DNA of 64,000 nt from an uncultured virus (IMG/VR IMGVR_UViG_3300020048_000092) (IMGVR_UViG_3300020048_000092), one strand, 5' to 3'; positions 1 to 61,651 are shown, counted from the stretch's first letter. The notes: generated by a model not told the origin, from the letters alone. Numbers and translations are program-made.

Positions 1-12
1 AGGAGAAAAATT

Positions 13-3016: not shown

Positions 3017-3017
3017 G

Positions 3018-3057: not shown

Positions 3058-3072
3058 CTTAGTTCTCAATGT

Positions 3073-3458: not shown

Positions 3459-3510
3459 TAACCATAGAGCTTGAGGTAAAGGATCAGTTTATACCGGCAG
3501 AAGATGTTGT

Positions 3511-5022: not shown

Positions 5023-6228
5023 ATGACCAAAATCGACGTTTCTGACCTATTAATTCGAGTAATTCTCAATAGAACTCATTATGATAGACCTACCAAACAG
5101 CACCCATTTGACATGGAAGGTACTGTATTACATATACTACCACATGAGGATAGGGTACGTGAGCTAATTGCACAAGGTGGATTGATAGATATACTATGTA
5201 ATCCTGATGTAGACTCAGATATGGCTGTTATTATGGTGCGTTGGGACAATGACCAGAGGACGTATGTCTATGCTGGTAGCCTAATTTTCCGCCGGGGGCT
5301 GGTAAGCATTTGCAATTCATTATGGGAAAGCTCTGGTATAGTAATGGATCATAGACCTACGGACCAGCTAATGCCCGATACTGGTGGTGTAAGTCCTAAA
5401 TCTACATTACCGAAAAAGTTTACAGGAGGATTAATATACAGTGATCCTAAGTTTGTGCCCAACGATGGTAAATGGCATCCATGCTATGCTAATAAGACAT
5501 CTAATATTTTAGGCCGGGCTATGGCCTATCCAGGCGGCAATGTAGAATTTGTTGCTGAAAGTAAAAAAGATAGATACACAAAAGACTGGTATCAAACTAA
5601 ATTTGGCAGCAAAGATGAGTACAACGCAGTCAAAACAGGAAGAATCAAACCTAGAAAGGCATCTACAAGTCTTGAATCTTACGCAATAGAAGTAATAGGA
5701 CAAGAAGATATTGTAGCATATACCAGAAATGACACACCAGAAGCAATGGGTCAAATTAGTTTTACCGGAATGGAAGAACGAGTTATTTCCAGTATAGAAG
5801 ACCCAGCTTCCCCAAAGCTATGGAGAGAGGTAACCGAAGATATAGAAAATATTAATGATGGCAGAAAGCTTATACATGAATGGGGTGGTAGAAATCCATC
5901 CAAAGAACCAGGAATTGTCATGTATGAACAAAAACAAACTCCAAGCAATAGTGGCTATAAATACTACACGGAGAAGACTAAAGCAGAGGTAGCAAGTATC
6001 TTTGAAAACAAAATTTCGGATATGGTTGCTAGTTATACTTGTTTTGTGGAGACGGATGATATGGGTACTGTAAGTAATACTACTACTATTGGTACTGGTC
6101 TAAGTGATACTACTATTATAGAAGATAAAACTATAGAGGTGCCAATACCTGTACCAGAACCCAACAATCTACATGATGTATACCAAAGCATAAATTATGA
6201 TGATGACTATGATGAGGATGAAGATTAA
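5023..6228 (+). CDS. Hypothetical protein; N-terminal SH3-like (VxWDN) domain followed by internal CNSLW, acidic tail
   Basis: EGTV...MVRWDNDQRTY resembles paralogs at 10681-12462; GAGG RBS. Confidence 0.55.
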   Translation: MTKIDVSDLLIRVILNRTHYDRPTKQHPFDMEGTVLHILPHEDRVRELIAQGGLIDILCNPDVDSDMAVIMVRWDNDQRTYVYAGSLIFRRGLVSICNSLWESSGIVMDHRPTDQLMPDTGGVSPKSTLPKKFTGGLIYSDPKFVPNDGKWHPCYANKTSNILGRAMAYPGGNVEFVAESKKDRYTKDWYQTKFGSKDEYNAVKTGRIKPRKASTSLESYAIEVIGQEDIVAYTRNDTPEAMGQISFTGMEERVISSIEDPASPKLWREVTEDIENINDGRKLIHEWGGRNPSKEPGIVMYEQKQTPSNSGYKYYTEKTKAEVASIFENKISDMVASYTCFVETDDMGTVSNTTTIGTGLSDTTIIEDKTIEVPIPVPEPNNLHDVYQSINYDDDYDEDED

Positions 6229-6324
6229 AAACCATGGCAAAAATATGTCGCTCGATCATAAAATTATCGAAAGCGATCGAAGTGTGTCGAAGCGGCACCC
6301 TGGTTAGTGTACAAATATCTGTTT

Positions 6325-6493
6325 TAATGTATAACACTATATTATAATTTAATGTATAACATTAAAATAGTAGTATTAATTCTGGTAGTATTTTGTAGTA
6401 GTATTAACTCTGGTAGTAGTATTAATTCTGGTAGTATTAATTCTGGTAGTATTAAATCCAGTAGTATTCCGTAGTATTAAATCCAGTAGTACT
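6325..6493. repeat. AT-rich intergenic repeat block: 2x TAATGTATAACA, 8x GTAGTATT plus one GTAGTACT
   Basis: TAATGTATAACA at 6325 and 6350; GTAGTATT at 6370, 6385, 6398, 6416, 6431, 6446, 6461, 6471; variant at 6486. Confidence 0.9.
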
Positions 6494-6510
6494 TAACAAG
6501 GAGAAAGCTT

Positions 6511-6825
6511 ATGAAGAGTTTAAATGGGTTAACGTTTATTGTAGGATACTGTGCGTTAGTATACCTTGCTGTGTTTGAGCATATTGCTGGTGCTGTTAAC
6601 ATGTTGGTGTTTACCACATGGCTTGCTGTTATTATGGCTGTTGTTATATCTATCAATGAGAACTTAAATAAAGGTAAGAGGTGTACAATATCTATTGGTG
6701 TGAATAAAGATAAACCAATTTTGATTGTGTTATACAGTATTATTATATATGTTTTAATTTGGAATGGGTTTTGGGGTTGTGGTGTTGGGTTTCTTATGTA
6801 TGCTCTTCTATCCAATAATAAATAA
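6511..6825 (+). CDS. Hypothetical multi-pass membrane protein
   Basis: AAGGAG RBS; several hydrophobic segments. Confidence 0.6.
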   Translation: MKSLNGLTFIVGYCALVYLAVFEHIAGAVNMLVFTTWLAVIMAVVISINENLNKGKRCTISIGVNKDKPILIVLYSIIIYVLIWNGFWGCGVGFLMYALLSNNK

Positions 6826-6880
6826 CCAATGAGCCGTGTTTGGCCCGGGCGAAAAAAATGCTTTAAAGAAGGAGATTACC

Positions 6881-7192
6881 ATGCTTAGAACAATAAGAAT
6901 ACCAGCCAGAAACATACCCGTATTCATACAAAACATAGGTTTAGTTGTACCTGATCTCATAGAAAGATGTTCTGTTAGGTATCCTGTAATCAGATCAGAT
7001 CTGAAAAGATGTTTCAATGAATTAGTTACATCTGTATCAGAATATAAAGTACAGCTTTTCTTTCAGCGTGAAGGCTTCTACGTAAACCCTGATGAACATG
7101 TTATTATACAGTATTATTCAGCAGTGCTTACAAGAAAGTGGTCATACAAAACTGTAGAACCAGAAAAAATTGGATGTGTGAGTATATGGTAA
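6881..7192 (+). CDS. SIW-tail protein (ends CVSIW)
   Basis: AAGGAG RBS before ATG 6881; similar to next ORF (TIR..I..F....G). Confidence 0.7.
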   Translation: MLRTIRIPARNIPVFIQNIGLVVPDLIERCSVRYPVIRSDLKRCFNELVTSVSEYKVQLFFQREGFYVNPDEHVIIQYYSAVLTRKWSYKTVEPEKIGCVSIW

Positions 7193-7479
7193 TAAAATTA
7201 GTAAGTCAAACAATAAGAGTAACTGAAATAATGGCGTTCTTGAATGATAATGGCTTTCTAGCCCCAGAGATATTAGTCAATGTTCGAAAGCCCATAGATA
7301 GAAAGATCATAACAAGAGAGCTCTATAACATAAAAGATAGTAATGATGAGAGATTTATTCGTAGTATTATATTTAGTAGTGATTCTATTGAAATAAAACC
7401 ATTGGATTTTATACTGATTAATACTATGCAGACTACTGATAAAGAGTGTAGCAAATCAGAGTGTAAGAGTATATGGTAA
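7186..7479 (+). CDS. SIW-tail protein (ends CKSIW)
   Basis: ATG lies inside the ATA-TGG codons of the upstream SIW tail. Confidence 0.7.
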   Translation: MVIKLVSQTIRVTEIMAFLNDNGFLAPEILVNVRKPIDRKIITRELYNIKDSNDERFIRSIIFSSDSIEIKPLDFILINTMQTTDKECSKSECKSIW

Positions 7480-8976
7480 GGAGAAATTATGGTAAATAAG
7501 AGTATTACAATTACAAAGAAAGACAATGTCATCGACTATAGGCTATACGAAGTAACGTTAGAATTAAAGAGGGTAAGTAATCCTCTTTTCGATGAGCATT
7601 CAATTGAACATAAGGTTATTCATGTGGTAGCTAAAGATATAGATACTATGGTTGATAGTGCAATCAATTGTGGTTGGGGAAGTTTATTACCTGGAGAATC
7701 TACTCCTCGGGATATTAGAGTAGCATCATATAGAGTTATACCATTTATCATCTAACAAGGTGCCTATTTGGCGCCGAAAAAACTTTTTAACTGGGAGAAA
7801 AAACAATGAAAACACAGATGATTGAAGATTTTGATTGCGATGGGCTATTTACTAAATCAACTAAACTTTCCGAGCCGATTGATGTTGAAATCATCGGGGT
7901 GAAGCTTCCTGTAGATCCAGGAATGGTTGTAGTGAAAGTAAATGATATGGTCAAAGAGGTTCCTACATTTACTCTGGTAAGTTGCCCGAAGATAGATTTT
8001 GCGAGCATGCTAACTGAAGAGCAAAAGAAACAAAGGGAGGCGCTTGGATTCTTGATGGTTTCAAGGGTTGGAACAGAAGAAATTCTTCCAATAAATGAAT
8101 GCCCTGTTGCGACCGATGCAACTTTGTTGTTGTCATTGATTGGATAATAACTTAAATCCATTTAAAAACCATTTTTATAACTTTTTAAGCAAATAATATT
8201 ATTCAATGAATAGTAGTACTTACACAACAGTACCGAATTCTTTTGCTAAACCCTTTGTTTACAACGGTTTCAGGCACTGAAAAAGGACTGTAATAAATAA
8301 GTGTAATTTATCGCTATTTAGGCATAAAAATATAAACAAGAATGCTGGTATTACAGCATTACAAGAATAAGGAGTTATCATGAATAAATATTATATTCCA
8401 AGTCCGGGCGCTGTGGTTGAATTAAAGTCAATTTCTGGACATGATTACAATGTTGATTTTAACACAGTTCTGGTTAAAAAAGTAAAACCGGATAACTACG
8501 GAGGAATTCTATTTTCCTATAATGATCGGGACAATAAAGAGCATTGGGTTAATGTATGCAATATAGATATGGTACACATGCATGGTAAGACTGGAAGAAA
8601 ACTGAATATTTATCAACTACCTCTGGAACAAAATATCATGTGCGCTTCAGCACTTAAATGTTCCAAATCATCTTACCATGGATCTTTACTGAACATAGTA
8701 GCTTACTGTTTAAGCAAAGTGGATGGTAATATCACATCACCTATTGACCAAGACAAATTATCATGGTTATTTCATAAAGCCTGGAGACTTCGACCGGCCG
8801 GATATTTTATTCTGAATAAAAAGAAAATCAGAAAGTGGGTGGCCAAAAACTATAGCAAGTTTCTTACAGACAAGAAGTTGCTGAAAGAAGAACAAAGTGA
8901 TTTCAGAAATATCTATGCCAAACAATACTGGGAAGATGTGGAACGAGATCGCACAAATGATTATTGGGGATGAAAA

Positions 8977-9303
8977 ATGGGTAATCCCAAAGGAAGACCG
9001 AAAGGCTACAGGTTAAGTGCTGAATCAATAGCAAAGATCAGTGCTACTAAGACTGGGTATATACATACAGAGGAGACCAAAGCGAAGATATCTATTAGTG
9101 TATCTGAATATTTTGATAACAATCCTACACCTAGTATGTTAGAGAAAGATTCACGTCTTATGTGTATGGGCAAATCTGAAGTTAGTAGAGCTCTAAATCT
9201 TATGAACTTTTGGCATGAAAATGTAGAACTTAGACAAATGCTATCAGATAGAATGAGAGCTTGGCACGCTACCAAAAAATCAATAGGAGAATTAACAGCA
9301 TGA
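8977..9303 (+). CDS. NUMOD3-motif DNA-binding protein without an evident nuclease domain
   Basis: GYRLSAESIAKIS and GYIHTEETKAKIS match the NUMOD3 pattern. Confidence 0.6.
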   Translation: MGNPKGRPKGYRLSAESIAKISATKTGYIHTEETKAKISISVSEYFDNNPTPSMLEKDSRLMCMGKSEVSRALNLMNFWHENVELRQMLSDRMRAWHATKKSIGELTA

Positions 9304-9581
9304 AAAAATTTATTATTACATCGCTTATGTTAACGATGTTGTGTTTAGCATCTTGCACTATGGCCAGTTGGGTAAACTTTAATGAAGATCATATAGTAGA
9401 ATTTAAAATTATAGGATCTGACGGTACAAAGTATAAATTAATGTCAGCGCGTAATAGACCGGTTGTTATTTATGCCCAGGAAAATCTCGCTAACGTAGGT
9501 GATATTATAAGATATGAGAATGGACATATAGTAGTTATTAAAAAGGATGCAAAGCCTGAAGTTAATCACACAAACGAATGA
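9300..9581 (+). CDS. Putative lipoprotein
   Basis: MKKF + hydrophobic core + lipobox LASC. Confidence 0.6.
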   Translation: MKKFIITSLMLTMLCLASCTMASWVNFNEDHIVEFKIIGSDGTKYKLMSARNRPVVIYAQENLANVGDIIRYENGHIVVIKKDAKPEVNHTNE

Positions 9582-9590
9582 GGAAATATT

Positions 9591-9803
9591 ATGAGAGAAT
9601 GTAGCAATTGTGGTATTAGTAAGAATGATGCTCTAACACATTGTCCGATGTGTGGTATGTCAATGTCCTATCTACCTGATGACGGGTCTATACCAGATTG
9701 TGAACCGTTATATAGTAATACATTGACAGAGATAGAGAAAATACGCGCTTTCTCAAAAAAGAAATCCAAGGGGTGGCCTTTCAACAATTTTCAATACGCA
9801 TAA
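9591..9803 (+). CDS. Small zinc-ribbon protein
   Basis: CSNC...CPMC. Confidence 0.6.
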   Translation: MRECSNCGISKNDALTHCPMCGMSMSYLPDDGSIPDCEPLYSNTLTEIEKIRAFSKKKSKGWPFNNFQYA

Positions 9804-10680
9804 GGTGGTAGAAATGAGTCTTATTATTGGAAGTTAACAATAAATGGTTTATTATCCTATGAAGAACTCATTAGTATCTGGTAAATGAATATGCTTGCAA
9901 AACTTGTGGTGAACTTTTAAAAAACAATTACTATAGGAGATAATATGAGCGAAATACCCTCAACTGGCGTAATTAAAATGATACTTTGGCACACTGACAA
10001 ATGTAATAACCTATTTCCAGTAGATTTAGACAAAAAAAGGATTGTGTTTCATCGGAAACGCATGACAAAAGTACTTTCTGTTTTTGATCGCTTTTTATAC
10101 TTTGACATGTACCCCTATGTTGCACCACAAGACTTGATAAATCGTATCGAGTTGTGTGATTGGGCAATGTCACTTTATAAAACAAAAATAAGTAAGCACT
10201 ATAGAAGATGGGACAGAGTTAAATTATGCCTGATAAAAATGCTTACTAAAAAGTTAGATATTGCAGAAGCTATTAAGTATATGGAACAACAGAAAGATTT
10301 AAATGAGGTTGAATTCAGAAATCTATTAAACTGGTGTAAGTATGCCACTTCATATGTTAAAGGTAAGAAGAGGGAAAAATGGATTGAATTAGAAATAAGC
10401 ATTAAAGATAAAATGCTTAAAGTGCTGAAAGAAGGTGAAGCGAAGGTAGATAAGTTAAATGAATTGATTTCTACCATTAAAAATGATTTGAAAGCAGCGG
10501 AAAAAGAAGTATCTATTACTTATAAATCAATAAAGTGGATGGACGAATTTTTCCTGCAGAAAGTAACAGGGGACGGGAGTTGTGACGAATGTCGTTTGCT
10601 ACATAAACCACATTGTAATAAAGAAGAGTGCCAGGCAGGTAAATTTGTTTTTAAATTATCAGAATTAATAGGCGTCCAGC

Positions 10681-10914
10681 ATGAAAAGAAATGACATAGT
10701 AATTTTAATAACTACTAGACATGGTATTTCACGTAATAATCCAGTACATGCTTCCGAATATGCATGTGAAGGAACCATCACTGAGGTAAAAGATCAGGCT
10801 CGCGAAGGGGCACTTAATATATATGTAAGCTGGGATAATGGTGAATGTAATACATACGATGAAACTGATTTACAACTGGTTAACGAATCAATGAACTATA
10901 AAAGTATTTGGTAA
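10681..10914 (+). CDS. SH3-like (Mib/HERC2-like) small protein, SIW tail (YKSIW)
   Basis: NP...EGTI...YVSWDNGECNTY..DL. Confidence 0.7.
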   Translation: MKRNDIVILITTRHGISRNNPVHASEYACEGTITEVKDQAREGALNIYVSWDNGECNTYDETDLQLVNESMNYKSIW

Positions 10915-11299
10915 GGAGTAATAATATGGTTTATGACATTGTAGTGAGTTTATTGTTATTTTTTTCAGGAATATTTTTTCTTGTAATAATTTTTATAATA
11001 AAAGAACGTAAAATTATTGCAGAAAGGAAGAAACTGATTTCTAATAGCAGTAATAAATTAGACATAATAAAAGATAAATGGTTATGGGCTATTGATAAGA
11101 CTGATTTGAAAACAGATAGTTTTGTAACATTGAAAAACTTTTTAAATGCCTCTTTTATTATTGAAGGAGAGAGCAAGAGATATAAAGCAATATGTAATGA
11201 ACTTAAATCACGTGGTTATGACGTTATCATGTTAGAACTTAAACCAGGAGTAAAATTCCCATTAATACATCACCCTATAATATAGGAATAGATACATAT

Positions 11300-11548
11300 A
11301 TGGAATCAATATGTAAATTGGGAGAAATACCCGAAAAACTTTGGGATGCTGGAATCATATCTAGATCAGTTTTTGTTGTATTAGAATACCTTACTGTTAG
11401 TGATAGACCAACTGACTTGTATAGGAGACTACTAAAAATACCAGAAGTAACTTTAGTTAATTTGAACAAAGAATTAGACCTTAAATCTCGTCATATACTA
11501 GCTATAAAAGAAACTGATAAAATTACTGGTTACAAAAGCATTTGGTGA
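11300..11548 (+). CDS. SIW-tail protein (YKSIW), helical family
   Basis: ORF track; conserved tail. Confidence 0.7.
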   Translation: MESICKLGEIPEKLWDAGIISRSVFVVLEYLTVSDRPTDLYRRLLKIPEVTLVNLNKELDLKSRHILAIKETDKITGYKSIW

Positions 11549-11557
11549 GGTATACAC

Positions 11558-11773
11558 ATGGAAGTAAAACTAAAGCCCGGATATTATGTTCCAAGACCCG
11601 ACAACCCATGCATTGGTTCAGAGTTTGAGACTAAAGGATTTATTAGTATGTATTTAAGTTTTGGTGGAGTTAAAGTAAAATGGGATAACGGTACATCCAA
11701 TGTTTATCGTGACTTTGAACTTACAGATATTGGAGCAGAACTTGTAAAACTTAATTATAAAAGCATTTGGTGA
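11558..11773 (+). CDS. SH3-like (Mib/HERC2-like) small protein, SIW tail (YKSIW)
   Basis: NPCIGSEFETKGFI...VKWDNGTSNVY. Confidence 0.75.
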   Translation: MEVKLKPGYYVPRPDNPCIGSEFETKGFISMYLSFGGVKVKWDNGTSNVYRDFELTDIGAELVKLNYKSIW

Positions 11774-11780
11774 GGTAATT

Positions 11781-11996
11781 ATGAAAGTAGGGGACATTGT
11801 AAAACTAAAACCTGGATTTTATGTACCAAGGGCAAACAATCCGTGTATTGGTTCAGAATTTGAAACTAAAGGATTTATTAGGGAACATACATCAGTCACT
11901 GGAGTTATAGTTCAATGGGATAATGGTACATCTAACGGTTATGATGCAGAAGGTGAATTGGAACTCATAAGTCTTGATTATAAAAGTATATGGTGA
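11781..11996 (+). CDS. SH3-like small protein, close duplicate of 11558-11773, SIW tail (YKSIW)
   Basis: Shared VKLKPG.YVPR..NPCIGSEFETKGFI and WDNGTSN.Y. Confidence 0.75.
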   Translation: MKVGDIVKLKPGFYVPRANNPCIGSEFETKGFIREHTSVTGVIVQWDNGTSNGYDAEGELELISLDYKSIW

Positions 11997-12000
11997 TGTA

Positions 12001-12462
12001 ATGAAGAAAGAAAATGCTGTAGTGGGTGGTATAGTATTACTAAGAGCAGGCACATATATATCAACACCTACGTATCCTTGTATGCATTCTTTTTATGAAT
12101 GTCCTGGGCGTATAACAAAAATCTATGATGATGCGGTAAAAGTATGTTGGGCGAATGAACGCGTATCTATGTTTGTCCCACAATATTTGCTTGAAGTGCA
12201 ATCTACAGACTTACCTCTTTATTTTTGTGTACCGTTAAAAACTGCGGCAACTATCTTATACGATTATGCTATGATAGATATGAAGATATATAAAGCTTTA
12301 TTGAATGACATTGAAGCAAATAGCATTAATTTAGTCCGCGCCACAATAAATAACCATTGCAGTCTCGCAGAAGTCTATTCATCAGATACAGACAAAACCA
12401 TGGTAAAGCTTATCATAAGACAATCAAAAAACGGCAAACAAGGATGCAAAAGCATTTGGTGA
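12001..12462 (+). CDS. Two-domain SIW-tail protein (SH3-like + helical domain; CKSIW)
   Basis: ATG 12001; YPC..YECPGRI...VCWAN then ILYDYAMID..Y..L. Confidence 0.7.
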   Translation: MKKENAVVGGIVLLRAGTYISTPTYPCMHSFYECPGRITKIYDDAVKVCWANERVSMFVPQYLLEVQSTDLPLYFCVPLKTAATILYDYAMIDMKIYKALLNDIEANSINLVRATINNHCSLAEVYSSDTDKTMVKLIIRQSKNGKQGCKSIW

Positions 12463-12465
12463 TAT

Positions 12466-12726
12466 ATGGAAAATTTTGAAGTAATAAAAGTAACAACATA
12501 TGAATTGGTTGACTTACTCAAAGAAAGAAATCTCATAGATGATACAAAGTATCAGTATTTAAAAATACAGTGTGATTTGTGTAACTTTGGAACAATAATT
12601 TCATATCTACGTGGAATCTCTTTTGACATACATGTAGGAGCTAGAACTTGGACAGCAGTAAATGAAAGAACTATCATGACTACGAAACTTCCTATTGCGG
12701 AGTTCAATTATAACAGTATTTGGTAA
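12466..12726 (+). CDS. SIW-tail protein (YNSIW), helical family
   Basis: LLKERNLIDD..YQYL similar to 12001 C-domain and 11300. Confidence 0.7.
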   Translation: MENFEVIKVTTYELVDLLKERNLIDDTKYQYLKIQCDLCNFGTIISYLRGISFDIHVGARTWTAVNERTIMTTKLPIAEFNYNSIW

Positions 12727-12736
12727 GGATATTATT

Positions 12737-13843
12737 ATGGGAATCAAAAGTAAGACAATTGTGTGCATTCTTCTATTATTGTGCTTTATACTATCTACTG
12801 CCTGGGCAGAAGAACCGGCAAAACCTCGTTATGGTAAACGAGTTCAAACAATGAATACTGAAGTTGGTAAATTAGAAATACGCTTCAGAGACGTTCGTGA
12901 TACTTGGAGAAATCATCCAAAAGTTTTTACTGAAATGGAATTTAAAAATAAACAGGATATCTATACAATTGATGTGGATTTAACAGATGATATCCCTGTG
13001 CTTGAATTGAAAACACCAGGATCAAGATATAAAATTGCTATTGTATTTAACGATATAAACAAACCGTATACGAGAAGTATTGGTTATTCTAGAGTTGTCT
13101 GTAAAGTACCTGCTGAAATAATAAAGATTTACCATGTAGCAATTCCAGAATTCAAAGAGTATTATTATAAGGAACAATTTCAGTTCCCGGCCAATTTTGT
13201 TGTAGATCTTAGAAATGATCCATTCATAAACAGACAACAGTCGCTTGAACGATTTGAAGAGCGAAGAAAATATGACGCTATCCGTTCATTAAAACCAATT
13301 TCAGAAGCCGTCAAGCGTAGAATGAGTAACAATAATGATGGAGATTGTATAATTGATGATTACCAGAAGAATATAAGATACGTAGAAATAAAAGACATAA
13401 ACAATGATACAATAAATGATCTTTATCAGTCCAGCAGATTTTATGAGGGAGAAAAACTATTCAACTTTGTGGATATAAATGGTGACGGTCTGTGTGATAA
13501 TTATATGCCTGGCGTATTTGATTGTAAACAATCTACGGCTGATTATTCGAATGTGGTACTTGATTTAAGAAAAGATATATTCCAGTGTAAAAGTACCGCA
13601 AATGATGCCGGAATAGATTATATCGATCAGAATCTGGATGGTATTAATGATGTTTTTCAAAACACAAAAATAGCAGTTAGATTATTCTATCAGGGATATC
13701 CTTTCAAAGTTGATAAATTCACTGACGTTAATGGTGACACTATCAATGACGCATTTCAAACACTTAAAGTTTATAATATTTATCGTATGACAACTTTCAT
13801 CGATATGGATGGTGATGGGGTGTCTGATACTTATAGAAAATAG
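12737..13843 (+). CDS. Secreted protein with five DxN/DxDG calcium-binding-type repeats
   Basis: Signal peptide ending AWA; DINNDTIND, DINGDGLCD, DQNLDGIND, DVNGDTIND, DMDGDGVSD. Confidence 0.7.
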   Translation: MGIKSKTIVCILLLLCFILSTAWAEEPAKPRYGKRVQTMNTEVGKLEIRFRDVRDTWRNHPKVFTEMEFKNKQDIYTIDVDLTDDIPVLELKTPGSRYKIAIVFNDINKPYTRSIGYSRVVCKVPAEIIKIYHVAIPEFKEYYYKEQFQFPANFVVDLRNDPFINRQQSLERFEERRKYDAIRSLKPISEAVKRRMSNNNDGDCIIDDYQKNIRYVEIKDINNDTINDLYQSSRFYEGEKLFNFVDINGDGLCDNYMPGVFDCKQSTADYSNVVLDLRKDIFQCKSTANDAGIDYIDQNLDGINDVFQNTKIAVRLFYQGYPFKVDKFTDVNGDTINDAFQTLKVYNIYRMTTFIDMDGDGVSDTYRK

Positions 13844-14519
13844 GAGAAATAACATGAAAAAGAAACTTAGAAATGTCTTTGTGCGGCCGGAAAATATAGA
13901 AATGATTGATAGCGAGGACAGACAAATTTTTGTAGTTCCTCTTGGTAAAATTGTCTATATTACAGATGATGAAATATTTCTTGAAAATAATACAGTAATA
14001 GATGTAGAAGCTGTCATTAAGTCTGAGCGTGATAAGTATAAACTCAAACATAAGGGCGAAGAAACTTTATATCTGATAGACGGAGTGAGTAAATCTCATG
14101 ATGATTACTATAAAAGTAAAGATACAATAGAAGAAATGGAAAAAGAACTCGTTCGAAAAACTATGATTAATCTCACCGAGCAACTTAATGACTTTTGGGA
14201 AAATCGTATGGTATAGGAGTTAACAATGGATTACTATATAGAGATAATAGATCAGGTTGAAAATGCTAAAACATTCAATTCTAGTGACTTTATTAAAGTA
14301 ACTGATGCTGTATATGAAATTGAAGATACTGTAAATCGTAGAACCACTTTCCTTGGGATGAGAATAAAAAAATCTTCAATAAGTAATCGCATAAAGGACA
14401 CCATTCACTTGAAATATGTAGTAGACATTGTCAAAGACGATGCTTGGGGTAAAGTCATAAGTTACTTTAAAGTAAATGGTTTTAAAGAATGTTATTCATT
14501 ACCATATGGAGGTGTTTAA

Positions 14520-15518
14520 ATGGAAAATCTATTGGTAGTTGGTGGGAATATAGAAACAGGAAAACGATCAGAAGTTATCTATAAGATATTTTGTTTGTAT
14601 GTGAAGCTCTGTCACTTTGTTTTAGGTAGATTACATAATGGAACTCTTCCTGAAAATCTTAATACCAAAGAAGATTTGGTTCTTTGGTTTCCTGATATTT
14701 CCAACGAGCATACAAAAACATATCCGAAAAAGAAGAAAGGATCAGTACTAATATGTTCGAAGGTGATGCGTGATAACACCACGAGAATAGATGCTGTATC
14801 ACGCATCTTTGCTATGCAGGGTAACGCCATAGTATTGATATATAAGAATCAGAAACCATTCAAATTTGAATTGGTCGATGCTTTAAACAATACATGGTGC
14901 CTTACAGATGATATTGAGGTGCTTGTAAATACGATAAATGAGCTATACACATGGACTAAAAAGTCTGTGAGAATCAGTTTAAAACAAAAAGATTTGGCAT
15001 CCATCAATCTTCCTAAAGTAGATTGTTCCAGTTTTATTGAAATTAACAAAAAACTTGCACTAAAGGTTGCTGAAGGCTGTGGTAATAGATTTTTTGGTAA
15101 TTATAGTACGCGTTGTACAAAACTGTTCCCTTCTGAACGAAACGAAAACATGTTTCTATTCTCACCAAGAAATGTAGACAAAAGGTTTGTTACTGAAGAT
15201 GATCTTATAGCAGTAACAGACCAGAATTACTTTGGCGATCGTAAACCTTCGGTCGATACCCCAGTACAACTTAAAATATATACAAGCTATCCAAATATCA
15301 ACTTCATGATCCATGGGCATGCCTTAATTGACGGCGCGCCTACAACCAAACACTATTTTCCATGTGGAGATCTTCGTGAAGTAGACGAAGTACTTAATCT
15401 GGTTGAAGAAAAGCATACCAAAAGAATCAATCTTAAGAATCATGGCTTTCTTCTACTTGGAGAAACTGAAGAAGACATGCGCATTCATCTTGAGGAATGT
15501 AACTTTAAATCACTCTAA
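14520..15518 (+). CDS. Protein with C-terminal class II aldolase/adducin-like domain
   Basis: KPSVDT...IY...IHGH...LKNHG metal-binding pattern. Confidence 0.65.
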   Translation: MENLLVVGGNIETGKRSEVIYKIFCLYVKLCHFVLGRLHNGTLPENLNTKEDLVLWFPDISNEHTKTYPKKKKGSVLICSKVMRDNTTRIDAVSRIFAMQGNAIVLIYKNQKPFKFELVDALNNTWCLTDDIEVLVNTINELYTWTKKSVRISLKQKDLASINLPKVDCSSFIEINKKLALKVAEGCGNRFFGNYSTRCTKLFPSERNENMFLFSPRNVDKRFVTEDDLIAVTDQNYFGDRKPSVDTPVQLKIYTSYPNINFMIHGHALIDGAPTTKHYFPCGDLREVDEVLNLVEEKHTKRINLKNHGFLLLGETEEDMRIHLEECNFKSL

Positions 15519-15716
15519 CTGTGAGGCTATATGGAAAATTTTACTAAGGCATTTTCTCCTCTATACGAACAATTTGTGACAATCAAAAAAATTCGTCGTG
15601 ATACACAAAACAGCCGTGAATGGGACTGGATTATTGATGCCCAGTTACCTACAGGAGAAGTTATAGCGTTCAGACGCAACGAACTGACAAACTATTCTTA
15701 ACTTAAGGAGTCTATT

Positions 15717-16697
15717 ATGAAACCAAATCCTAAGAATTTCTGTGGTGGAAATTATAATGATTGGGTAGAAGTGATGTTAACACCAAAGTGTAATGGTAAA
15801 TGTGCCTGGTGTGTGGATAAAAATGGGTTTCATCCAAAGGAAGAAGTAGACTGGAAGACACTGGCTGACACCATCATAGCTCTGAATAAACGTAATATTA
15901 TCCTGCTAGGTGGCGAGCCAACTTTGTATAGAAAACTTCCGGAACTAGTATCCTATCTATCGTCGCATAACAGAGATGTTTATATTACTACAAATGGAAG
16001 CCACATGACATTTATAGGTAATAATATATCTAAATTGGCCGGGCTGAATGTGTCTATTCATCATTATGATCTTTACAGAAATAAAGATATTACCGGAATT
16101 TTAGTTAATTTCAATCTACTAGAAAGAGTAATAAAATACTTTAAGGAGGACAAGAATATTCATACAAGACTTAACTGTACTCTAATAAATGGAGAAATAG
16201 ATTCAGTACATGAGATAAACGAATACATCGAATTTGCAAAAAGCGTAAGAGCGACTTCGGTGAGATTTGCCGAGCTTAAACACGACAGCAAATTTGTAAA
16301 TCTGTACGAATTGTTCGGCAATGCCTACGGGTTTTCCAATAATCCTTTTGTAAATGGCTGCTCTACAGATGCTGTGTTAAATGGGATGCCAGTGTCGTTT
16401 AGGCAGATGTGTGGTTTACAAACATCTTTCAGGCCTTTACCTACGGATTTAGAGGCATTCGGAAACAAAAAATCAGTTGTATATTACAATGGTGTAGTAT
16501 ATGATGGATGGCAAACTAAAGACAAGGAGATAGAAGAAATGAAACTGAAAGATAAAAATCTTAGTGTTAAACAAATTCTCGAAAAAGTTAAATCCGGACA
16601 AATGACGATAGAAACCGCCAATAAATTATTGGAAAAGAAGGCACAAACAAACGCTTCCGATGAAACCGATCGCTACGATGGTAGCTGTAGATACTGA
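15717..16697 (+). CDS. Radical SAM enzyme
   Basis: CNGKCAWC (CxxxCxxC), GGEPTL, ITTNG. Confidence 0.85.
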   Translation: MKPNPKNFCGGNYNDWVEVMLTPKCNGKCAWCVDKNGFHPKEEVDWKTLADTIIALNKRNIILLGGEPTLYRKLPELVSYLSSHNRDVYITTNGSHMTFIGNNISKLAGLNVSIHHYDLYRNKDITGILVNFNLLERVIKYFKEDKNIHTRLNCTLINGEIDSVHEINEYIEFAKSVRATSVRFAELKHDSKFVNLYELFGNAYGFSNNPFVNGCSTDAVLNGMPVSFRQMCGLQTSFRPLPTDLEAFGNKKSVVYYNGVVYDGWQTKDKEIEEMKLKDKNLSVKQILEKVKSGQMTIETANKLLEKKAQTNASDETDRYDGSCRY

Positions 16698-18565
16698 TTA
16701 AGGAATTGCACATGCAAATCAAACGTGAACAAAATCATTATGATTTCTTAGATGCGCACCTACCGAAATTCCTTAACGACACAAAAGTTCGTGGAGGATG
16801 GGACTGGAATGCTGGAATAATTTCAGCCCATGGTGATAAATTTTATGGCTATAAAGATAAATGGGAGGAAGCTGGTATACACTTTTTTCATGGTTGTATG
16901 ATAATGATGCTCACTTATTGTTCCCCATATGGTGATGAAACAAGGGAAAGAGTTTCAGGTGTTAGATGGGTAGATCCATCTCAATGGGTTATTGATAATT
17001 ATGATAGATTAAAAAATTTACTTCCAACAATAGAATAGGAGATTTAAAATGATATGGAGAATTGCAATAGTTTATGCTATTGCCAAAAATACTAACATAT
17101 CAGAGCAAGGCATAGTGTGGTTAAGTATAATTTGTTTTATAACATGGTTTATTGACCTTTAAAATTAGGAGAACTAAAATGATTCAATGCCAATGTAACA
17201 GCCATATGCTCGAAAACAACAGCTACAAGCTAATATCTAAATGTCTTAAAACAGGAGAACCTGTAAGTGTGGTAATGGTCTGTGACTGTTGTGGTTATCG
17301 TTGGGTTACTGGAGCAGAACCAGATTTTGACTATGATGGAAAAGAATGTATGTTGGGATTTGGTGGAGATTTTCATCCTGAAAAACACAAAGATTTGCAA
17401 CATGTCTATGGTATTCTACATTTTCCTTCTACATCAATTGGTAAAGGAAGTTTTGCAATTATAGGACATCATGAAAATCTCGGGAGTGGAATTCTGGGTT
17501 GGTACGAAAAAAAGGAGCATGCAATGATTGCTCATAAGAATATGCTTAAAGATCGGAAGCGAATAGCATACACCGGTAAAGTGGTAACAAAAGAAGAAGC
17601 ATTAGGAGATAATTAGAATGGATATGTCTTTTTGTCTATATGTTCTTGGATCGACACTGATGACAATAGGTGTTGGTACTATGGTAACAGTATTGACCAG
17701 TAGTACTGACCTTGGGTTATCTGCTGGGTCAATTACAGCAGCAATATGCTTGTGGGTTGGTAGCTACTGTTTTAGAAAATGGTGATAACCATGCCACATT
17801 TTATGGAGGAAGAAATGACTTTAACGATGTATTTTATTGTAATATTTGCTATATGGTTAGTGTTTGGTATAGCTATAGTATTACATGACGTTCATGTGAC
17901 ATATAGTAGAAAAGGTACATTAACTTTAAAAGACGTAATTATGTCTTTTGCTGACTGTTTTCCATATGGAGGATTTTTAATTGTTATAATAGGCTATCAA
18001 TCTGTCATAGATATTTCAAAAAAATATGTAGATATCTTTTTGAATTGGTGTGATGGTACCGTATTAATAAGGAGGAAAAACAAATGATAGTGCTGTATAT
18101 CTATTTAATCTATGTATTATCTGGGCTCATTGCTGCAATTATTTGTACAGTAATCGACTACCGTGAAGGAACAGCGATAACGTATAAGTATTTACTAACA
18201 TTGTTGTTTCTTTCTGTGTTTATTGGCCCAGTTCTACTTGGTGCCGTTATTAGCCTTCTGCTTAAGTCCTCTAAATTGGATATTGTATTATTTAAAAGGA
18301 GAACAAAAAATGTCAAATGAAAAATTAGTAAGATTGGGATTTGATAAGGGTGTAGCAAAAATTTATCCAACTGAAAAATCAGTTGACAACTGGCAGTTTA
18401 GTGACCATGAAGAAAATGAAGCAATGTTGGCTACTTGTGTGGCTAGAGTGGCTAAAGCTAATGGACTGAGCGCAAATGATATTCATCGCGCTTTTCCATT
18501 GATTCTTCGTATGTTAAAATCAAAATCAGTTTGGGCGGAATAGCCAAACACAAGGAGAACTAACC

Positions 18566-19726
18566 ATGAAAAATGTATTAACGACTGAAAAGAAACCAAT
18601 CAAACTATGGCTTGACGATCTGGAAGATTTAGCATTAGCACAGGCAAAGAATTTAGCTAATCTTCCGTTTACATTCAGCCACGTAGCACTCATGCCCGAT
18701 GCTCATATGGGTTTTGGGATGCCGATTGGCGGTGTTGTGGCTACACATGGGGTAGTAATCCCTAATGCAGTGGGAAGTGACGTGGGGTGTGGCGTGTGTG
18801 CTGTAAGAACTTCTCTTACAGATATCAACCTGGAAGATTTGAAGAAAACAATGTCTAAGATTAGAGAACATATTCCTTTGGGTATGAATCATCATTTAAA
18901 AGAACAAGCGGATAAATGGATGCCGGCCAGGATACATGGCAATGATCTGCTAGATTCTCTTCATTTTTCTTCATTGAAACAGATAGGAACTCTTGGTGGC
19001 GGAAATCATTTCATTGAGCTTCAAAAAGGTTCCGATAATTTTGTCTGGATTATGCTTCATTCTGGCAGCAGAAATCTTGGCTTCCAGGTTGCAAAGTATT
19101 ATAATTCCTTAGCAATTGAATTAAATGAGAAATGGTTTTCGGAAGTGCCTACAACGTGGCAACTTTCCTTTCTTCCATTGGATACGAAAGAAGGTATGGC
19201 CTACATGGAAGCAATGAGCTATTGTGTTGAGTTTGCTCGACGCAACAGACTTCTCATGATGGCTAGAATTCAAGATATTATCGTAGACACTTGTAAAAAT
19301 GTAGAGTTTGGTGCTATGCTTAATATCGCTCATAACTATGCTGAGATGGAACATCATTTTGGCAGAAATGTTGTGGTACATAGAAAGGGGGCTACAAAAG
19401 CATATGCAGGCCAGTTAGGTATTATACCTGGTTCACAAGGAACCTCAAGTTACATTGTTAAAGGTTTAGGTAACAGAGATAGTTTCATGTCATGTTCTCA
19501 TGGCGCCGGCCGTAAAATGGGTCGAAAACGTGCCCAAAAGGAACTTGTCCTGTTGGATGAAATCAAACGCCTCGATGAGCTCGGTGTAGTTCATTCTATT
19601 AGAACTGTAGATGATCTGGATGAAGCTCCCGGTGCTTATAAAGACATCACAACCGTTATGGAAAATCAGAAAGACTTGGTTGAAATTGTAGTTGAACTAA
19701 AACCATTAGCAGTAGTGAAAGGATAG
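18566..19726 (+). CDS. rtcB: RtcB RNA-splicing/repair ligase
   Basis: MPDAHMG.GMPIG, VGSDVGCG, GTLGGGNHFIE, HSGSR, HNYA, HRKGAT, SHGAGR, DEAPGAYKDI. Confidence 0.97.
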   Translation: MKNVLTTEKKPIKLWLDDLEDLALAQAKNLANLPFTFSHVALMPDAHMGFGMPIGGVVATHGVVIPNAVGSDVGCGVCAVRTSLTDINLEDLKKTMSKIREHIPLGMNHHLKEQADKWMPARIHGNDLLDSLHFSSLKQIGTLGGGNHFIELQKGSDNFVWIMLHSGSRNLGFQVAKYYNSLAIELNEKWFSEVPTTWQLSFLPLDTKEGMAYMEAMSYCVEFARRNRLLMMARIQDIIVDTCKNVEFGAMLNIAHNYAEMEHHFGRNVVVHRKGATKAYAGQLGIIPGSQGTSSYIVKGLGNRDSFMSCSHGAGRKMGRKRAQKELVLLDEIKRLDELGVVHSIRTVDDLDEAPGAYKDITTVMENQKDLVEIVVELKPLAVVKG

Positions 19727-20930
19727 TAACATGGATATTTATGTTTTAGGTAGTATAGTAGCTATTTGTTGTGGGCTACTTGGAATTTTAGTTTTTTTAG
19801 GGCTATGGTCTGACAAGTTTACTGATTTTATTAACAGTGTGTTTTCACAAGAGTTTCTTAACCGAGTAGGTATTTTAATTTTCTGTATCATACCGGTAAT
19901 TTATGTTGTCATTTTTGTATGCTGGAAGATTTCAACAATCGTTGGTTTGAATATAAACATAACCATTAATTGAGGAGATAACCACTTACAAAAATACCAG
20001 AATGTTAAAATGAAAAGTTAGTGTGACATACTACCAACAAAATAACAGCCTGGTCTGTAATATGGCCGGGCACAAGGAGAATAAACTATGTTTATAACAG
20101 AATGGAAAGAAGAAGTAGATGGATCATACTGGGAAGCAATTGCTTCCATAAGGGAAGGATTAACTCCAATATTCAAGTTGGAGATACATGATCTACGACA
20201 TGATGGTAAACTTCAGTCAGAAAATACACATCGTTTCGAAATAATTATTAGAGATTATGTTACAAGTAAAATGCTTAGCAGTAAGTTTATAAAATTTAAC
20301 GCTACATACACCGACCCCAATTTTGTAGGTAAGCGAGTCAAGGAGAAAGCCATCGAGCTTGCCCACATGCTGTTGTTATTGGAAGGCTCTTATAACAGAT
20401 GTAAGAAACTTAAAAAGAATATCTGTCCTCATAAACATGTGAGTGCAGAAACATGTAACGGGTGTAAGTTACCTGAATTATTCATCAGTAACATAAATTA
20501 AAGGAGAAAGTTATGGAATTTGAATTATCAGGGTTAGGAAAAGATGGTAAACCTACCAGAGTAAGAACAAATGATGGCTTCATGCAAACAGCTAGAAAAT
20601 TTGATGAAGAAACAGACGGATGGATGCTTGACCAACTAGACCCTAATGACTTCGAAATCATAAGGATGGGTAGACAGACACAGGCATTAGTAAATGAAGT
20701 CAATCGTCTTAGACGGGAAAATTTTCAATTGAACAGAAGTATTAAGTAACCATGAAGGAGGAACATTATGAAGCGCACTAATACTGAATATGTGAAGCGC
20801 TTAGAAAAAGCGTTAAAACACATAGAAAGTACTTTATCTACATTGTATAAATTGTCAAAAGATCCTGAAGTAGACTTAAATTCTATGCGAGGGGCCGCAC
20901 TAACAGACATTAAACGTACTGTTAAAACGG

Positions 20931-21254
20931 TTGAAATACATGCATAACAACGATAATTATGACTACAGTGGTAATTTTATCGCATTCTTACAAACCAACA
21001 ACATTATCGGTAGAGTAGCAGAATTAGTAAAAAAGAAAATAGGGATCGCGCTTGATGATAATGAATCTGATGAAAGAGTTATCAAACTATTTATAGAAAA
21101 AATGCACATCCCCCACGGTGTAATAAACAATCTATGTACGTGGGGAGCCCAGCCAGAAGGATCTGTTTATTGGAGTAATTTACATGACAAATGGCACCGT
21201 GTATGTGATAAACAAGTAGTTTTGATCAACAAAGCATACAAAAGTATATGGTGA
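20931..21254 (+). CDS. SIW-tail protein (YKSIW)
   Basis: Ends AYKSIW; start could be ATG 20940. Confidence 0.65.
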   Translation: MKYMHNNDNYDYSGNFIAFLQTNNIIGRVAELVKKKIGIALDDNESDERVIKLFIEKMHIPHGVINNLCTWGAQPEGSVYWSNLHDKWHRVCDKQVVLINKAYKSIW

Positions 21255-21276
21255 TAGTCAATGAAAAGGTGGCTAA

Positions 21277-21675
21277 ATGAAAGTAGCGTTTGATATTCAT
21301 GGAACAATTGACACTGACGTAGGCATGTTCAAAAAGATAATGAATACTTTAACTCTTTTGGGAATAGAAGTCTCAGTAATGTCCGGTCCGCCAGTAGAAA
21401 TTATCATGAAGCAACTCAAAGAATTGAGGCTTGTCTACGGTATTCACTATAAAGATATATACTCTGTGGTTGATTATCTAACGGTTGCATGTGTAGAAAT
21501 GAAACAAGATAACAATGGAAACTGGTGGGCGAAAGATACCGATTGGTGGTCGGCCAAAGGTAAGATGTGTGAAAGATATGGTATATCTACATTGATTGAC
21601 AACGAGATTCGCTATAAAAATGCGGTTAAATTCCCAACAAACTTTATATTATACAATAAGGATCTTTTCAAATGA
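21277..21675 (+). CDS. HAD-superfamily-like protein
   Basis: N-terminal VAFDIHGTI (DxDGT variant), VMSG, K..., LIDN. Confidence 0.55.
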   Translation: MKVAFDIHGTIDTDVGMFKKIMNTLTLLGIEVSVMSGPPVEIIMKQLKELRLVYGIHYKDIYSVVDYLTVACVEMKQDNNGNWWAKDTDWWSAKGKMCERYGISTLIDNEIRYKNAVKFPTNFILYNKDLFK

Positions 21676-61646: not shown

Positions 61647-61651
61647 AAGTT

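What the first reader, a model, noticed from the sequence alone, without database searches (positions are those of the whole stretch)
6881..21254. At least nine small proteins share a C-terminal (Y/C)-(K/N/V)-S-I-W-stop tag
Seen: ORFs ending CVSIW (7192), CKSIW (7479), YKSIW (10914, 11548, 11773, 11996, 21254), CKSIW (12462) and YNSIW (12726). Weaker variants are KSVWAE (18543), YGGVW (28855) and an internal CNSLW after the first domain of 5023-6228. The tag sits on two unrelated-looking sequence types (an SH3-like VxWDNG domain and a helical domain), on a fusion of both, and on a gene 8 kb away. Nucleotide differences are mostly synonymous (TAT/TAC, AAA/AAG, AGT/AGC, ATA/ATT, TAA/TGA), pointing to selection on the peptide and on a free terminal Trp. 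Caveat: Ser is always AGY and the 3' end often doubles as the next RBS or start codon. Inference: a shared address label, e.g. for packaging into the virion or a phage compartment, docking on a common host or phage hub, a degron, or a substrate for the COOH-NH2 ligases/ATP-grasp enzyme encoded downstream. I know of no described phage system with this tag.
Basis: partly seen in the sequence, partly recalled or inferred. Interest (0 to 1): 0.85.

Follow-up and report, generated by a model that had tools for sequence, protein, structure and literature searches.

The report
Shared tryptophan end-tag on phage proteins
An uncultured large phage ends at least nine small proteins of different folds with the same five-residue tail (Tyr/Cys-Lys-Ser-Ile-Trp), and the same tail recurs on about a hundred related metagenomic proteins, so it looks like a portable docking handle whose reader is still unknown.

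Summary
Nine + strand ORFs end in [YC][KNV]SIW-stop at the stated coordinates. A tenth copy sits behind an in-frame TAA at 9801-9803. The 12-mer AGYATHTGGTRA occurs 11 times against 0.21 expected.

The tail is a peptide feature, not a DNA element.
- Related metagenome contigs encode its Ser with both AGY and TCN codons.
- They use all three stop codons, and the downstream DNA varies.

Four carriers are MIB/HERC2-like SH3 barrels. A family profile hits Mind bomb 1 at E 7e-7. AlphaFold2 models residues 1-62 confidently and leaves the tail flexible. Multi-repeat relatives carry the tail only after the last repeat.

Of 147 distant relatives, 59 end in [ST][ILVM]W and 56 of those end exactly in SIW. 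Five further window carriers, and five in other contigs, are not SH3-like. They share only a weak N-terminal helical motif.

Information content is high for the last five residues and near zero in the variable linker before them.

The best reading is a portable C-terminal short linear motif that docks diversified small proteins on one common reader. Clamp, protease and C-terminal ligase readers all remain open. My searches found no published description. Earlier notes of this scan report similar tryptophan end-tags in other phages.

The parts
6881..7192 (+). Non-SH3 (helical-type) carrier, ends GCVSIW-TAA. ATG at 6881 follows AAGGAG.
   Evidence: no SH3 match apart from the tail
7186..7479 (+). 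Non-SH3 carrier, ends ECKSIW-TAA. Its ATG lies inside the Ile-Trp codons of the preceding gene's tail.
9591..9884 (+). Zinc-ribbon ORF (9591-9803). The same frame continues past one TAA for 26 codons to LISIW-TAA. Either a decayed or a read-through tenth carrier.
10681..10914 (+). MIB/HERC2-like SH3 carrier, ends NYKSIW-TAA
   Evidence: tail-less HMM E 2.7e-27
11300..11548 (+). Non-SH3 carrier, ends GYKSIW-TGA
11558..11773 (+). MIB/HERC2-like SH3 carrier, ends NYKSIW-TGA
   Evidence: E 1e-20
11781..11996 (+). MIB/HERC2-like SH3 carrier, ends DYKSIW-TGA. This is the protein that was modelled.
   Evidence: E 4e-23
12001..12462 (+). Fusion of an SH3-like domain and a non-SH3 C-terminal half. One tail only, at the very end (GCKSIW-TGA).
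   Evidence: (E 2.1e-12, residues 10-76 of the 162-aa ORF)
12466..12726 (+). Non-SH3 carrier, ends NYNSIW-TAA
20931..21254 (+). Isolated non-SH3 carrier 8 kb downstream, ends AYKSIW-TGA
5023..6228 (+). 401-aa protein with a marginal SH3-like N-terminal domain, followed by an internal CNSLW (5311-5325) and a long acidic extension. Possibly an internalised tail.
   Evidence: (E about 1e-3)

Best explanation
The pentapeptide [Y/C]-[K/N]-S-I-W at the C-terminus is a portable short linear motif. Each carrier has three parts: a small variable module, a short linker that varies in length and sequence, and the invariant tail. The module is a MIB/HERC2-like SH3 barrel, a helical (possibly winged-helix-like) domain, a fusion of both, or once a zinc ribbon.

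I infer that the tail inserts its Ile-Trp and Tyr/Cys side chains into a pocket of one common reader protein. The many diversified modules are then all brought to, or handled by, the same machine. This is adaptor logic: variable recognition end, constant docking end.

Shown: the tail is selected as a peptide, it is not part of the SH3 fold, it occurs once per polypeptide at the end, and it sits on non-homologous modules in several unrelated contigs.

Inferred: that it docks on a single reader.
For: 1. Enrichment and frame. The 12-mer has 11 copies against 0.21 expected. All 10 + strand copies are in frame with an upstream ORF, one of them through a single TAA.

2. Peptide-level selection. Among 38 distinct tails (9 from the window, 29 from metagenome loci):
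- Ser/Thr codon: AGT 22, AGC 6, TCA 4, TCT 4, ACT (Thr) 2.
- Ile codon: ATA 23, ATT 13, ATC 2.
- Trp TGG in 38 of 38.
- Stops: TAA 20, TGA 10, TAG 8.
- Codons -6 to -8 show 18-22 different codons, and the downstream DNA varies.
- 17 of the 30 tagged ORFs in those loci were not what the search pattern asked for.

3. Sharp motif boundary. In 101 distinct tail-bearing proteins, position -4 is K in 76 and N in 14. Position -5 is Y in 47, C in 41 and F in 6. Information content is 2.5-3.3 bits there, 0.77 at -6 and 0.17-0.38 at -7 to -11.

4. The tail is not part of the fold.
- AlphaFold2 with a 17-sequence alignment gives an SH3 barrel for residues 1-62, with mean pLDDT 92-97 in the ten-residue blocks up to residue 60. 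The tail has no secondary structure; mean pLDDT is 73 for residues 61-70 and 57 for residue 71.
- The distance from the WDNG Trp to the terminal Trp varies from 25 to 37 residues.
- Relatives with two or three SH3 repeats (P0004, P0007, P0029) carry the tail only after the last repeat.
- The window's fusion protein has one tail, at its end.

5. Conservation across distance. A profile search of 1.84 billion cluster representatives gave 429 hits at E<=1e-3. Of the 147 listed non-window hits, 59 end in [ST][ILVM]W and 56 of those end exactly in SIW. Of the 109 that score >=60 bits with a tail-less HMM, 48 end in the tail and 17 have it near the end.

6. Portability. Five window carriers, the C-terminal half of the fusion, and five carriers in loci L116, L120, L121 and L122 have no SH3 match apart from the tail.

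7. Clustering in arrays. 10 of 18 called ORFs in L121 are tagged, 6 of 10 in L122, and 4 of 4 in L120. One array lies next to a T7 gp5.9-like RecBCD-inhibitor domain. This fits diversifying host-takeover genes.
Against: - No reader was identified, so the docking step is inference only.
- The tail is not universal in the SH3 family. In the exclusive classification, 30 of 146 relatives carry a different basic tail (NPNxxF[RK]xKK) and 36 carry neither. The only cultured-phage homologs found lack it: Proteus phage Pm5461 gene 021 and Klebsiella phage KP2025 XCO36202.
- A free carboxylate is not strictly required: 21 of 147 relatives have 1-20 residues after the motif.
- The non-SH3 carriers share an N-terminal motif (leave-one-out score 40.4; null 26.5 +/- 5.1; 0 of 40 null sets reach it). 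Portability may therefore span only two or three families.
- The profile used included the tail, which favours tail-bearing hits. One search shows this bias is limited.
- The near-equal Tyr/Cys alternation at -5 is unexplained.
Confidence: 0.6

Rival explanations
1. The tail is a degradation or turnover signal. A host or phage protease reads the C-terminal pentapeptide, so a whole set of early proteins is removed together at a set time. This is a special case of 'one reader' in which the reader is a protease.
For: - The tail is flexible and exposed at the C-terminus.
- It sits on many small proteins clustered in what looks like an early or host-takeover region.
- C-terminal degrons on phage regulators are established knowledge (recalled: the MuA C-terminus read by ClpX, the lambda CII C-terminal tail read by FtsH).
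Against: - No protease or adaptor gene was found in the window by Pfam or PHROGs.
- The tail does not resemble the ssrA-type nonpolar Ala-rich ends (recalled).
- Strong conservation of five residues over very distant relatives is more than most degrons need.
- Nothing here separates this reading from plain docking.
Confidence: 0.13
2. The tail mediates assembly among the carriers themselves. For example, the SH3-like barrel of one carrier binds the tail of another, forming chains or hetero-oligomers of SH3 and helical carriers.
For: - MIB/HERC2 domains of Mind bomb 1 were solved bound to a peptide (entry 4xi7, listed among the fold matches). The family profile matches Mind bomb 1 at E 7e-7.
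- SH3 and non-SH3 carriers are interleaved in the same arrays, and one natural fusion joins them.
Against:
- Internal repeats of multi-repeat relatives lack the tail.
- In the monomer model the tail does not dock on its own barrel.
Confidence: 0.12
3. The tail is the recognition site or acceptor for an enzyme that modifies protein C-termini. Candidates in the same genome are the RimK/TTL-like ATP-grasp ligase (58363-59505) and the three COOH-NH2 ligases (37175-38101, 50369-51553, 57038-58354).
For: - The window carries these ligases together with several glutamine amidotransferases.
- The related 279.6-kb contig (L123) also encodes a RimK/TTL-like ATP-grasp enzyme within 7 kb of its tagged gene.
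- RimK and tubulin-tyrosine ligase act on protein C-termini (established knowledge, recalled).
Against: - The co-occurrence rests on two related phages only.
- The short tag-rich contigs show no ligase.
- The known substrates of these enzymes end in acidic residues, not in Lys-Ser-Ile-Trp (recalled).
- 21 of 147 relatives bury the Trp behind further residues.
Confidence: 0.08
4. The conserved element is nucleic acid rather than peptide. It could be a ribosome-binding or translational-coupling junction, or a micro-homology site for recombination that shuffles gene cassettes. In that case the peptide is a by-product.
For: - The stop is followed by GGAG/GGT/GGA in 5 of 9 window copies.
- One start codon lies inside the Ile-Trp codons.
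- Ser is AGY in all 9 window copies.
- Such a junction could explain how the tail spreads between gene families.
Against: - Relatives encode Ser with both AGY and TCN, which differ at two codon positions.
- All three stop codons occur, and the downstream sequence is not conserved. Many copies in L121 have no Shine-Dalgarno-like sequence right after the stop.
- All 10 + strand copies in the window are in frame.
The longest open frame there is 79 codons of low-complexity translation.
Confidence: 0.04

Closest known systems
C-terminal sliding-clamp-binding epitopes of phage T4 gp43, gp55 and gp33 (review PMC2988020, passages read); clamp-binding motifs of phage Mu MuC (PMC12867686, abstract and passages read)
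   Same: One short C-terminal peptide is shared by unrelated proteins of one phage. It is joined to the body by a linker of divergent sequence and varying length. The T4 epitopes are interchangeable between carriers and all dock on one hub.
   Different: The T4 epitopes are hydrophobic and acidic, whereas this tail is hydrophobic and basic (Lys). No clamp gene was found in the window; the gene PHROGs called a clamp loader is RuvB-like by Pfam. The carriers here are many small diversified paralogs, not polymerase and transcription factors. Binding was not tested.
Bacterial beta-clamp-binding motif QL[SD]LF (consensus recalled, not from a call)
   Same: It ends in Ser, then an aliphatic residue, then an aromatic residue. 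In some polymerases it sits at the extreme C-terminus.
   Different: The defining Gln is absent: position -5 is Tyr, Cys or Phe. Position -4 is Lys rather than Leu.
MIB/HERC2 (CPH) domain of eukaryotic E3 ligases Mind bomb 1, HERC2 and HECTD1 (Pfam PF06701)
   Same: The SH3-like barrel and the V-x-W-D-N-G-x-x-N-x-Y signature. Profile hit to Mind bomb 1 at E 7e-7. The best Foldseek matches include 3dkm, 9l8y, 4xi7 and 2dk3.
   Different: Here it is a stand-alone 70-aa phage protein or a tandem repeat of it, with no ligase domain. Single sequences stay below Pfam's gathering score (16.3 bits against 33.5). The eukaryotic domains carry no such tail.
Invariant C-terminal tryptophan of McdB, needed for its association with carboxysomes (PMC11321042; title and start of abstract seen in the listing only)
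   Same: A terminal Trp serves as the key docking residue of a bacterial protein on a large assembly.
   Different: It is one protein family in a cellular positioning system, not a tag shared by many phage proteins. The surrounding motif is different.
Adaptor tethering peptides such as the SspB C-terminal ClpX-binding tail, and F-box / SOCS-box adaptors (recalled, not from a call)
   Same: A variable recognition domain plus a constant short handle that tethers it to one machine.
   Different: There is no sequence similarity, and no protease or ligase partner is shown here.

Membership tests
MIB/HERC2 domain (PF06701), for the SH3-like carriers | SH3-like five-stranded beta-barrel | tested here: met
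   AlphaFold2 model with strands at 6-9, 31-36, 41-46, 51-55 and 60-62, mean pLDDT 91.6. The top Foldseek matches are HECTD1 CPH/Mib-herc2, HERC2 and Mind bomb 1, though all at E about 1e-2.
MIB/HERC2 domain (PF06701), for the SH3-like carriers | Sequence signature G-T-V ... V-x-W-D-N-G-x-x-N-x-Y-R, detectable by profile | tested here: met
   The profile of 17 family members hits Mind bomb 1 (4xi6) at E 7.2e-07, aligning both of its Mib domains over the WDNG core.
MIB/HERC2 domain (PF06701), for the SH3-like carriers | Score at or above Pfam's gathering threshold | tested here: not met
   The best single-sequence scores are 16.3 bits against the cut-off of 33.5. One relative carries a precomputed PF06701 hit and another is named Mib_herc2 by its source.
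T4-type clamp-binding C-terminal epitope | Same C-terminal peptide on unrelated proteins, after a variable unstructured linker | tested here: met
T4-type clamp-binding C-terminal epitope | Hydrophobic and acidic composition | tested here: not met
   Position -4 is Lys in 76 of 101 tails. There is no acidic preference at -6 to -8.
T4-type clamp-binding C-terminal epitope | A cognate sliding clamp that binds the peptide | tested here: inconclusive
   Pfam and PHROGs recognise no clamp gene in the 64-kb window. The rest of the genome is not held. Binding cannot be tested with these tools.
Bacterial beta-clamp-binding motif QL[SD]LF | Gln at the first position | tested here: not met
   Position -5 is Y 47, C 41, F 6, I 4, L 2, T 1 of 101, and never Q.
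Class I PDZ ligand ([S/T]-x-hydrophobic-COOH; definition recalled) | Ser/Thr at -2 from the end and a hydrophobic last residue | tested here: met
   S or T, then I, then W in all 101 tails. This is by selection of the set, since the sequences were chosen for ending in [ST]IW.
Class I PDZ ligand ([S/T]-x-hydrophobic-COOH; definition recalled) | Free terminal carboxylate required, and a PDZ reader in the same compartment | tested here: inconclusive
   21 of 147 relatives extend beyond the Trp. Pfam finds no PDZ protein in the window. Host PDZ proteases are mostly periplasmic (recalled).

The most novel reading that the evidence does not exclude
A clade of uncultured large phages (contigs of 72-280 kb, from aquatic and soil or wetland samples) uses a five-residue C-terminal address tag. 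The tag routes a rapidly diversifying set of MIB/HERC2-like and helical mini-adaptors to a single hub. This would be a phage counterpart of the F-box / SOCS-box adaptor logic, built on the same substrate-binding domain that eukaryotic E3 ligases use. A second, basic tail (NPNxxF[RK]xKK) would serve as an alternative address in sister lineages.
Probability: 0.3. Interest if true: 0.8.

Novelty: new variant of a known kind. Interest (0 to 1): 0.62.

Why it matters
Small early phage proteins are the largest pool of unknown function in phage genomes. A shared, sharply bounded tail gives a direct experimental handle on many of them at once.

The work also shows that the MIB/HERC2 substrate-binding domain of eukaryotic ubiquitin ligases has an abundant stand-alone family in phages. 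That family has two alternative C-terminal tails.

Tried and rejected
Searches that found no relatives:
- No whole genome is held for this window, so no genome-wide count was possible.
- Megablast of 10000-22000 against cultured phages gave no match.
- IMG/VR scans gave only chance matches or nothing. The radical SAM protein found nothing. WDNG plus the tail pattern gave one chance match, L114. P0007 found nothing.
- The GTDB genome scan gave two chance matches, L126 and L127, with no tagged ORF.
- Of the nine metagenome loci, L118 was a chance match inside a PLP-enzyme-like gene.
- The whole records behind L117 and L123 could not be searched.
- A word-based search with the window's own SH3 protein found only the window's two proteins.

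Structure and complex predictions:
- Complex prediction of the SH3 barrel (residues 1-63) with carrier 12466-12726 gave no verdict (score 0.01; controls were not run). This is neither for nor against binding.
- AlphaFold2 of the fusion protein without an alignment gave mean pLDDT 52. Its helix-helix-strand pattern for the non-SH3 half is only a hint of a winged-helix-like fold.
- The ESM Atlas gave no usable lead for carrier 12466-12726 (best score 0.88). For 10681-10914 it gave only unnamed viral clusters, with YorP and DUF4314 as fold neighbours.

Sequencing runs:
- No RNA holder was listed.
- Contigs of four runs from three studies were laid on 6800-12800. None of the 40 differences shown falls in a tail or at 9801-9803. 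A further 99 differences were not shown, so this says little.

Other checks:
- No tRNA and no Rfam family was found in the window.
- Sigma-70-type promoter matches in 6200-13000 are at chance level: 32 found against 33.7 expected.

Considered and set aside:
- A RiPP-like Lys-Trp cross-link made by the radical SAM enzyme at 15717-16697. The carriers are folded 70-160 aa proteins. No radical SAM gene lies in the other tag-bearing loci that were scanned. This was not tested further.
- A CaaX-like lipidation box. The Cys is at -5, not -4, and alternates with Tyr.

Literature searches found no description of this tail or of MIB/HERC2 domains in phages.

Full report
**The observation**

The window is a one-strand, about 35% GC stretch of a large-phage-like contig. 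The 12-mer AGYATHTGGTRA occurs 11 times against 0.21 expected, and 0 of 100 shuffles reach 11.

Ten copies are on the + strand. Nine close ORFs that are open for 74-163 codons. The tenth (9873-9884) is in frame with the zinc-ribbon ORF 9591-9803, from which one TAA separates it. The single - strand copy lies in a 25-codon open frame and looks like chance.

Ser is AGY in 9 of 9 copies, and five stops are followed by GGAG/GGT/GGA. The ATG of the gene starting at 7186 lies inside the ATATGG of the preceding tail.

**What the carriers are**

With the tails removed, BLAST links four carriers as paralogs: 10681, 11558, 11781 and the N-terminal half of 12001-12462. A tail-less HMM finds these same four at E 2e-12 to 3e-27. 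It finds 5023-6228 only marginally, and no untagged strong paralog in the window.

They are MIB/HERC2-like SH3 barrels:
- Single sequences give weak Pfam hits to PF06701 and SH3-C_UBE2O.
- A 17-sequence profile hits Mind bomb 1 at E 7.2e-07 over the WDNG core of both its Mib domains.
- The AlphaFold2 model has mean pLDDT 91.6. Its best Foldseek matches are HECTD1 CPH/Mib-herc2, YorP, PetP, HERC2 and Mind bomb 1, all at E about 1e-2.

The other five carriers and the C-terminal half of the fusion have no detectable similarity to the barrel or to each other. A motif finder does recover a shared N-terminal pattern of the type x-x-E-I-x-x-F-L-x-D-N-G-x-I. It does so in these carriers and in the five non-SH3 carriers from other contigs. 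The leave-one-out score is 40.4 against 26.5 +/- 5.1 for random sets of untagged small proteins, and 0 of 40 random sets reach it. They may therefore be one very divergent helical family. A low-confidence model hints at helices followed by a beta wing.

**Relatives**

The phage has no close relative among cultured phages or in IMG/VR. The SH3 family, however, is large in metagenomes. The profile search gave 429 cluster representatives at E<=1e-3. The 147 listed non-window proteins break down as follows:
- 59 end in [ST][ILVM]W; 56 of these end exactly in SIW.
- 21 have the motif within 20 residues of the end.
- 32 carry a different, basic tail of the form NPNxxF[RK]xKK.

The profile included the tail, so I rescored with a tail-less HMM. 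Of the 109 proteins scoring 60 bits or more, 48 end in the tail, 17 have it near the end, 27 have the basic tail and 17 have neither.

A DNA pattern scan of JGI metagenome contigs returned nine loci. One is a chance match (L118). L117 and L123 are near-identical at the tagged gene. These loci hold 30 tagged ORFs, and 17 of them were not what the pattern demanded. The tagged ORFs form dense arrays: 10 of 18 called ORFs in L121, 6 of 10 in L122 and 4 of 4 in L120.

L123 lies in a 279.6-kb contig. It shares the RuvB, sigma factor, CCA-enzyme gene order with window 60657-63845. It also has a TROVE protein and a RimK/TTL-like ATP-grasp enzyme, so it is a large phage of the same group.

The only cultured-phage homologs found have the WDNG barrel but other C-terminal sequences. 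They are Proteus phage Pm5461 gene 021 and Klebsiella phage KP2025 XCO36202.

Near-identical DNA occurs in runs of three studies labelled aquatic, soil and wetland.

**Peptide or DNA?**

Among 38 distinct tails:

| Position | Codons seen |
|---|---|
| Ser/Thr (-3) | AGT 22, AGC 6, TCA 4, TCT 4, ACT (Thr) 2 |
| Ile (-2) | ATA 23, ATT 13, ATC 2 |
| Trp (-1) | TGG 38 |
| Stop | TAA 20, TGA 10, TAG 8 |

The two Ser codon families differ at two positions, so keeping Ser through that change points to selection on the residue. The three codons before the motif show 18-22 different codons. The DNA after the stop is not conserved.

In 101 distinct tail-bearing proteins the information content is 2.5 bits at -4 (K 76, N 14) and 3.3 bits at -5 (Y 47, C 41, F 6). 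It is 0.77 at -6 and 0.17-0.38 from -7 to -11. So this is a five-residue motif behind a free-varying linker.

**Part of the fold?**

No, on four grounds:
- The model leaves residues 63-71 without secondary structure. Mean pLDDT is 73 for residues 61-70 and 57 for residue 71, against 92-97 in the ten-residue blocks of the barrel.
- The spacing from the WDNG Trp to the terminal Trp ranges from 25 to 37 residues.
- Proteins with two or three barrels carry the tail only after the last one.
- The window's SH3-plus-helical fusion has a single tail at its end.

**How it most likely works**

The anatomy is a variable module, then a variable linker, then an invariant terminal pentapeptide. It repeats on different modules in tandem, fast-diverging arrays. 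That is the anatomy of a docking short linear motif read by one partner.

The best-documented phage parallel is T4. There the similar C-termini of gp43, gp55 and gp33 all bind the sliding clamp and can be interchanged. In gp55 a divergent linker of varying length precedes the epitope (PMC2988020, passages read). MuC of phage Mu likewise uses clamp-binding motifs (PMC12867686).

I therefore commit to 'common docking handle' at about 0.6. The window has no recognisable clamp, PDZ protein or protease. The tail is basic rather than acidic and lacks the Gln of the bacterial clamp motif.

The rivals are set out with their evidence in the rival explanations: degron, self-assembly on the SH3 barrels, a substrate of the phage's C-terminal ligases, and a nucleic-acid element. 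The last is largely refuted.

**Comparison and novelty**

The domain is a new, abundant phage branch of the MIB/HERC2 fold. It is below Pfam's threshold for single sequences, so I call it MIB/HERC2-like rather than a member by Pfam's rule.

The tail works like known shared C-terminal docking epitopes but matches none in sequence. My six literature searches found no description of it.

Earlier notes of this scan report similar tryptophan end-tags on small early proteins of other uncultured phages (e1-6013707, e1-6041534, e1-5982590, e1-5408371; e1-6013707 again). Sequence look-ups found no overlap with those windows. I did not test their claims, and they are leads, not support.

**Verdict**

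This is a real, sharply defined and widely conserved peptide tag with an unidentified reader. It is a new variant of a known kind. Interest 0.62.

Noticed in passing
window 9591-9884: The zinc-ribbon ORF 9591-9803 ends in TAA, and the same frame runs on for 26 codons to ...EELISIW-TAA. This is either a tagged gene cut by a nonsense codon or a read-through isoform. It would be a third kind of module carrying the tail.
   Followed up: partly
proteins P0006, P0053, P0066, P0074, P0098, P0106, P0123, P0147, P0150 and others: 32 of 147 relatives of the SH3 family end instead in a basic tail of the form NPNxxF[RK]xKK. This is an alternative C-terminal module on the same domain, of unknown meaning.
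   Followed up: partly
window 5023-6228: A marginal SH3-like domain is followed by CNSLW at the position where the tail would sit. After it come about 300 more residues ending in an acidic run (DDDYDEDED). It may be a tail internalised by gene fusion.
   Followed up: partly
window 7181-7192: The ATG of the next carrier gene (7186) is formed by the Ile-Trp codons ATA-TGG of the preceding tail. When Ile is ATA, the tag's DNA doubles as a start codon.
   Followed up: yes
window 1-2000 and 2967-3864: The first 2 kb have 49% GC against 32-40% elsewhere. They hold a 590-aa ORF (13-1782) with no Pfam or PHROG hit. Two runs of N lie at 2967-3013 and 3511-3864. This may be a foreign insert or an assembly join.
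   Followed up: no
window 44097-47594: An 1166-aa protein has weak hits to both RNA polymerase Rpb2 domain 6 and Rpb1 domain 2. It looks like a single-chain two-barrel RNA polymerase.
   Followed up: no
window 37175-59505: A dense set of three phiEco32-type COOH-NH2 ligases, class I and class II glutamine amidotransferases, and a RimK-like ATP-grasp enzyme. Their substrate is unknown.
   Followed up: no
window 28209-29112 and 29599-29823: Five small paralogous ORFs each carry two CxxC pairs (zinc ribbons). One of them ends in YGGVW.
   Followed up: no
window 18566-19726, 30239-31861, 62451-63845; L123 2041-3456, 10501-12090, 12889-13515: An RNA-repair-type gene set (RtcB, Ro60/TROVE, CCA-adding enzyme, and an RNA ligase in L123) is shared between the window and the 279.6-kb contig. 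Both also have the gene order RuvB, sigma factor, CCA enzyme.
   Followed up: partly
L121 333-695 (- strand): A protein with a T7 gp5.9-like RecBCD-inhibitor domain (E 3.6e-14) lies beside an array of ten tagged genes.
   Followed up: no
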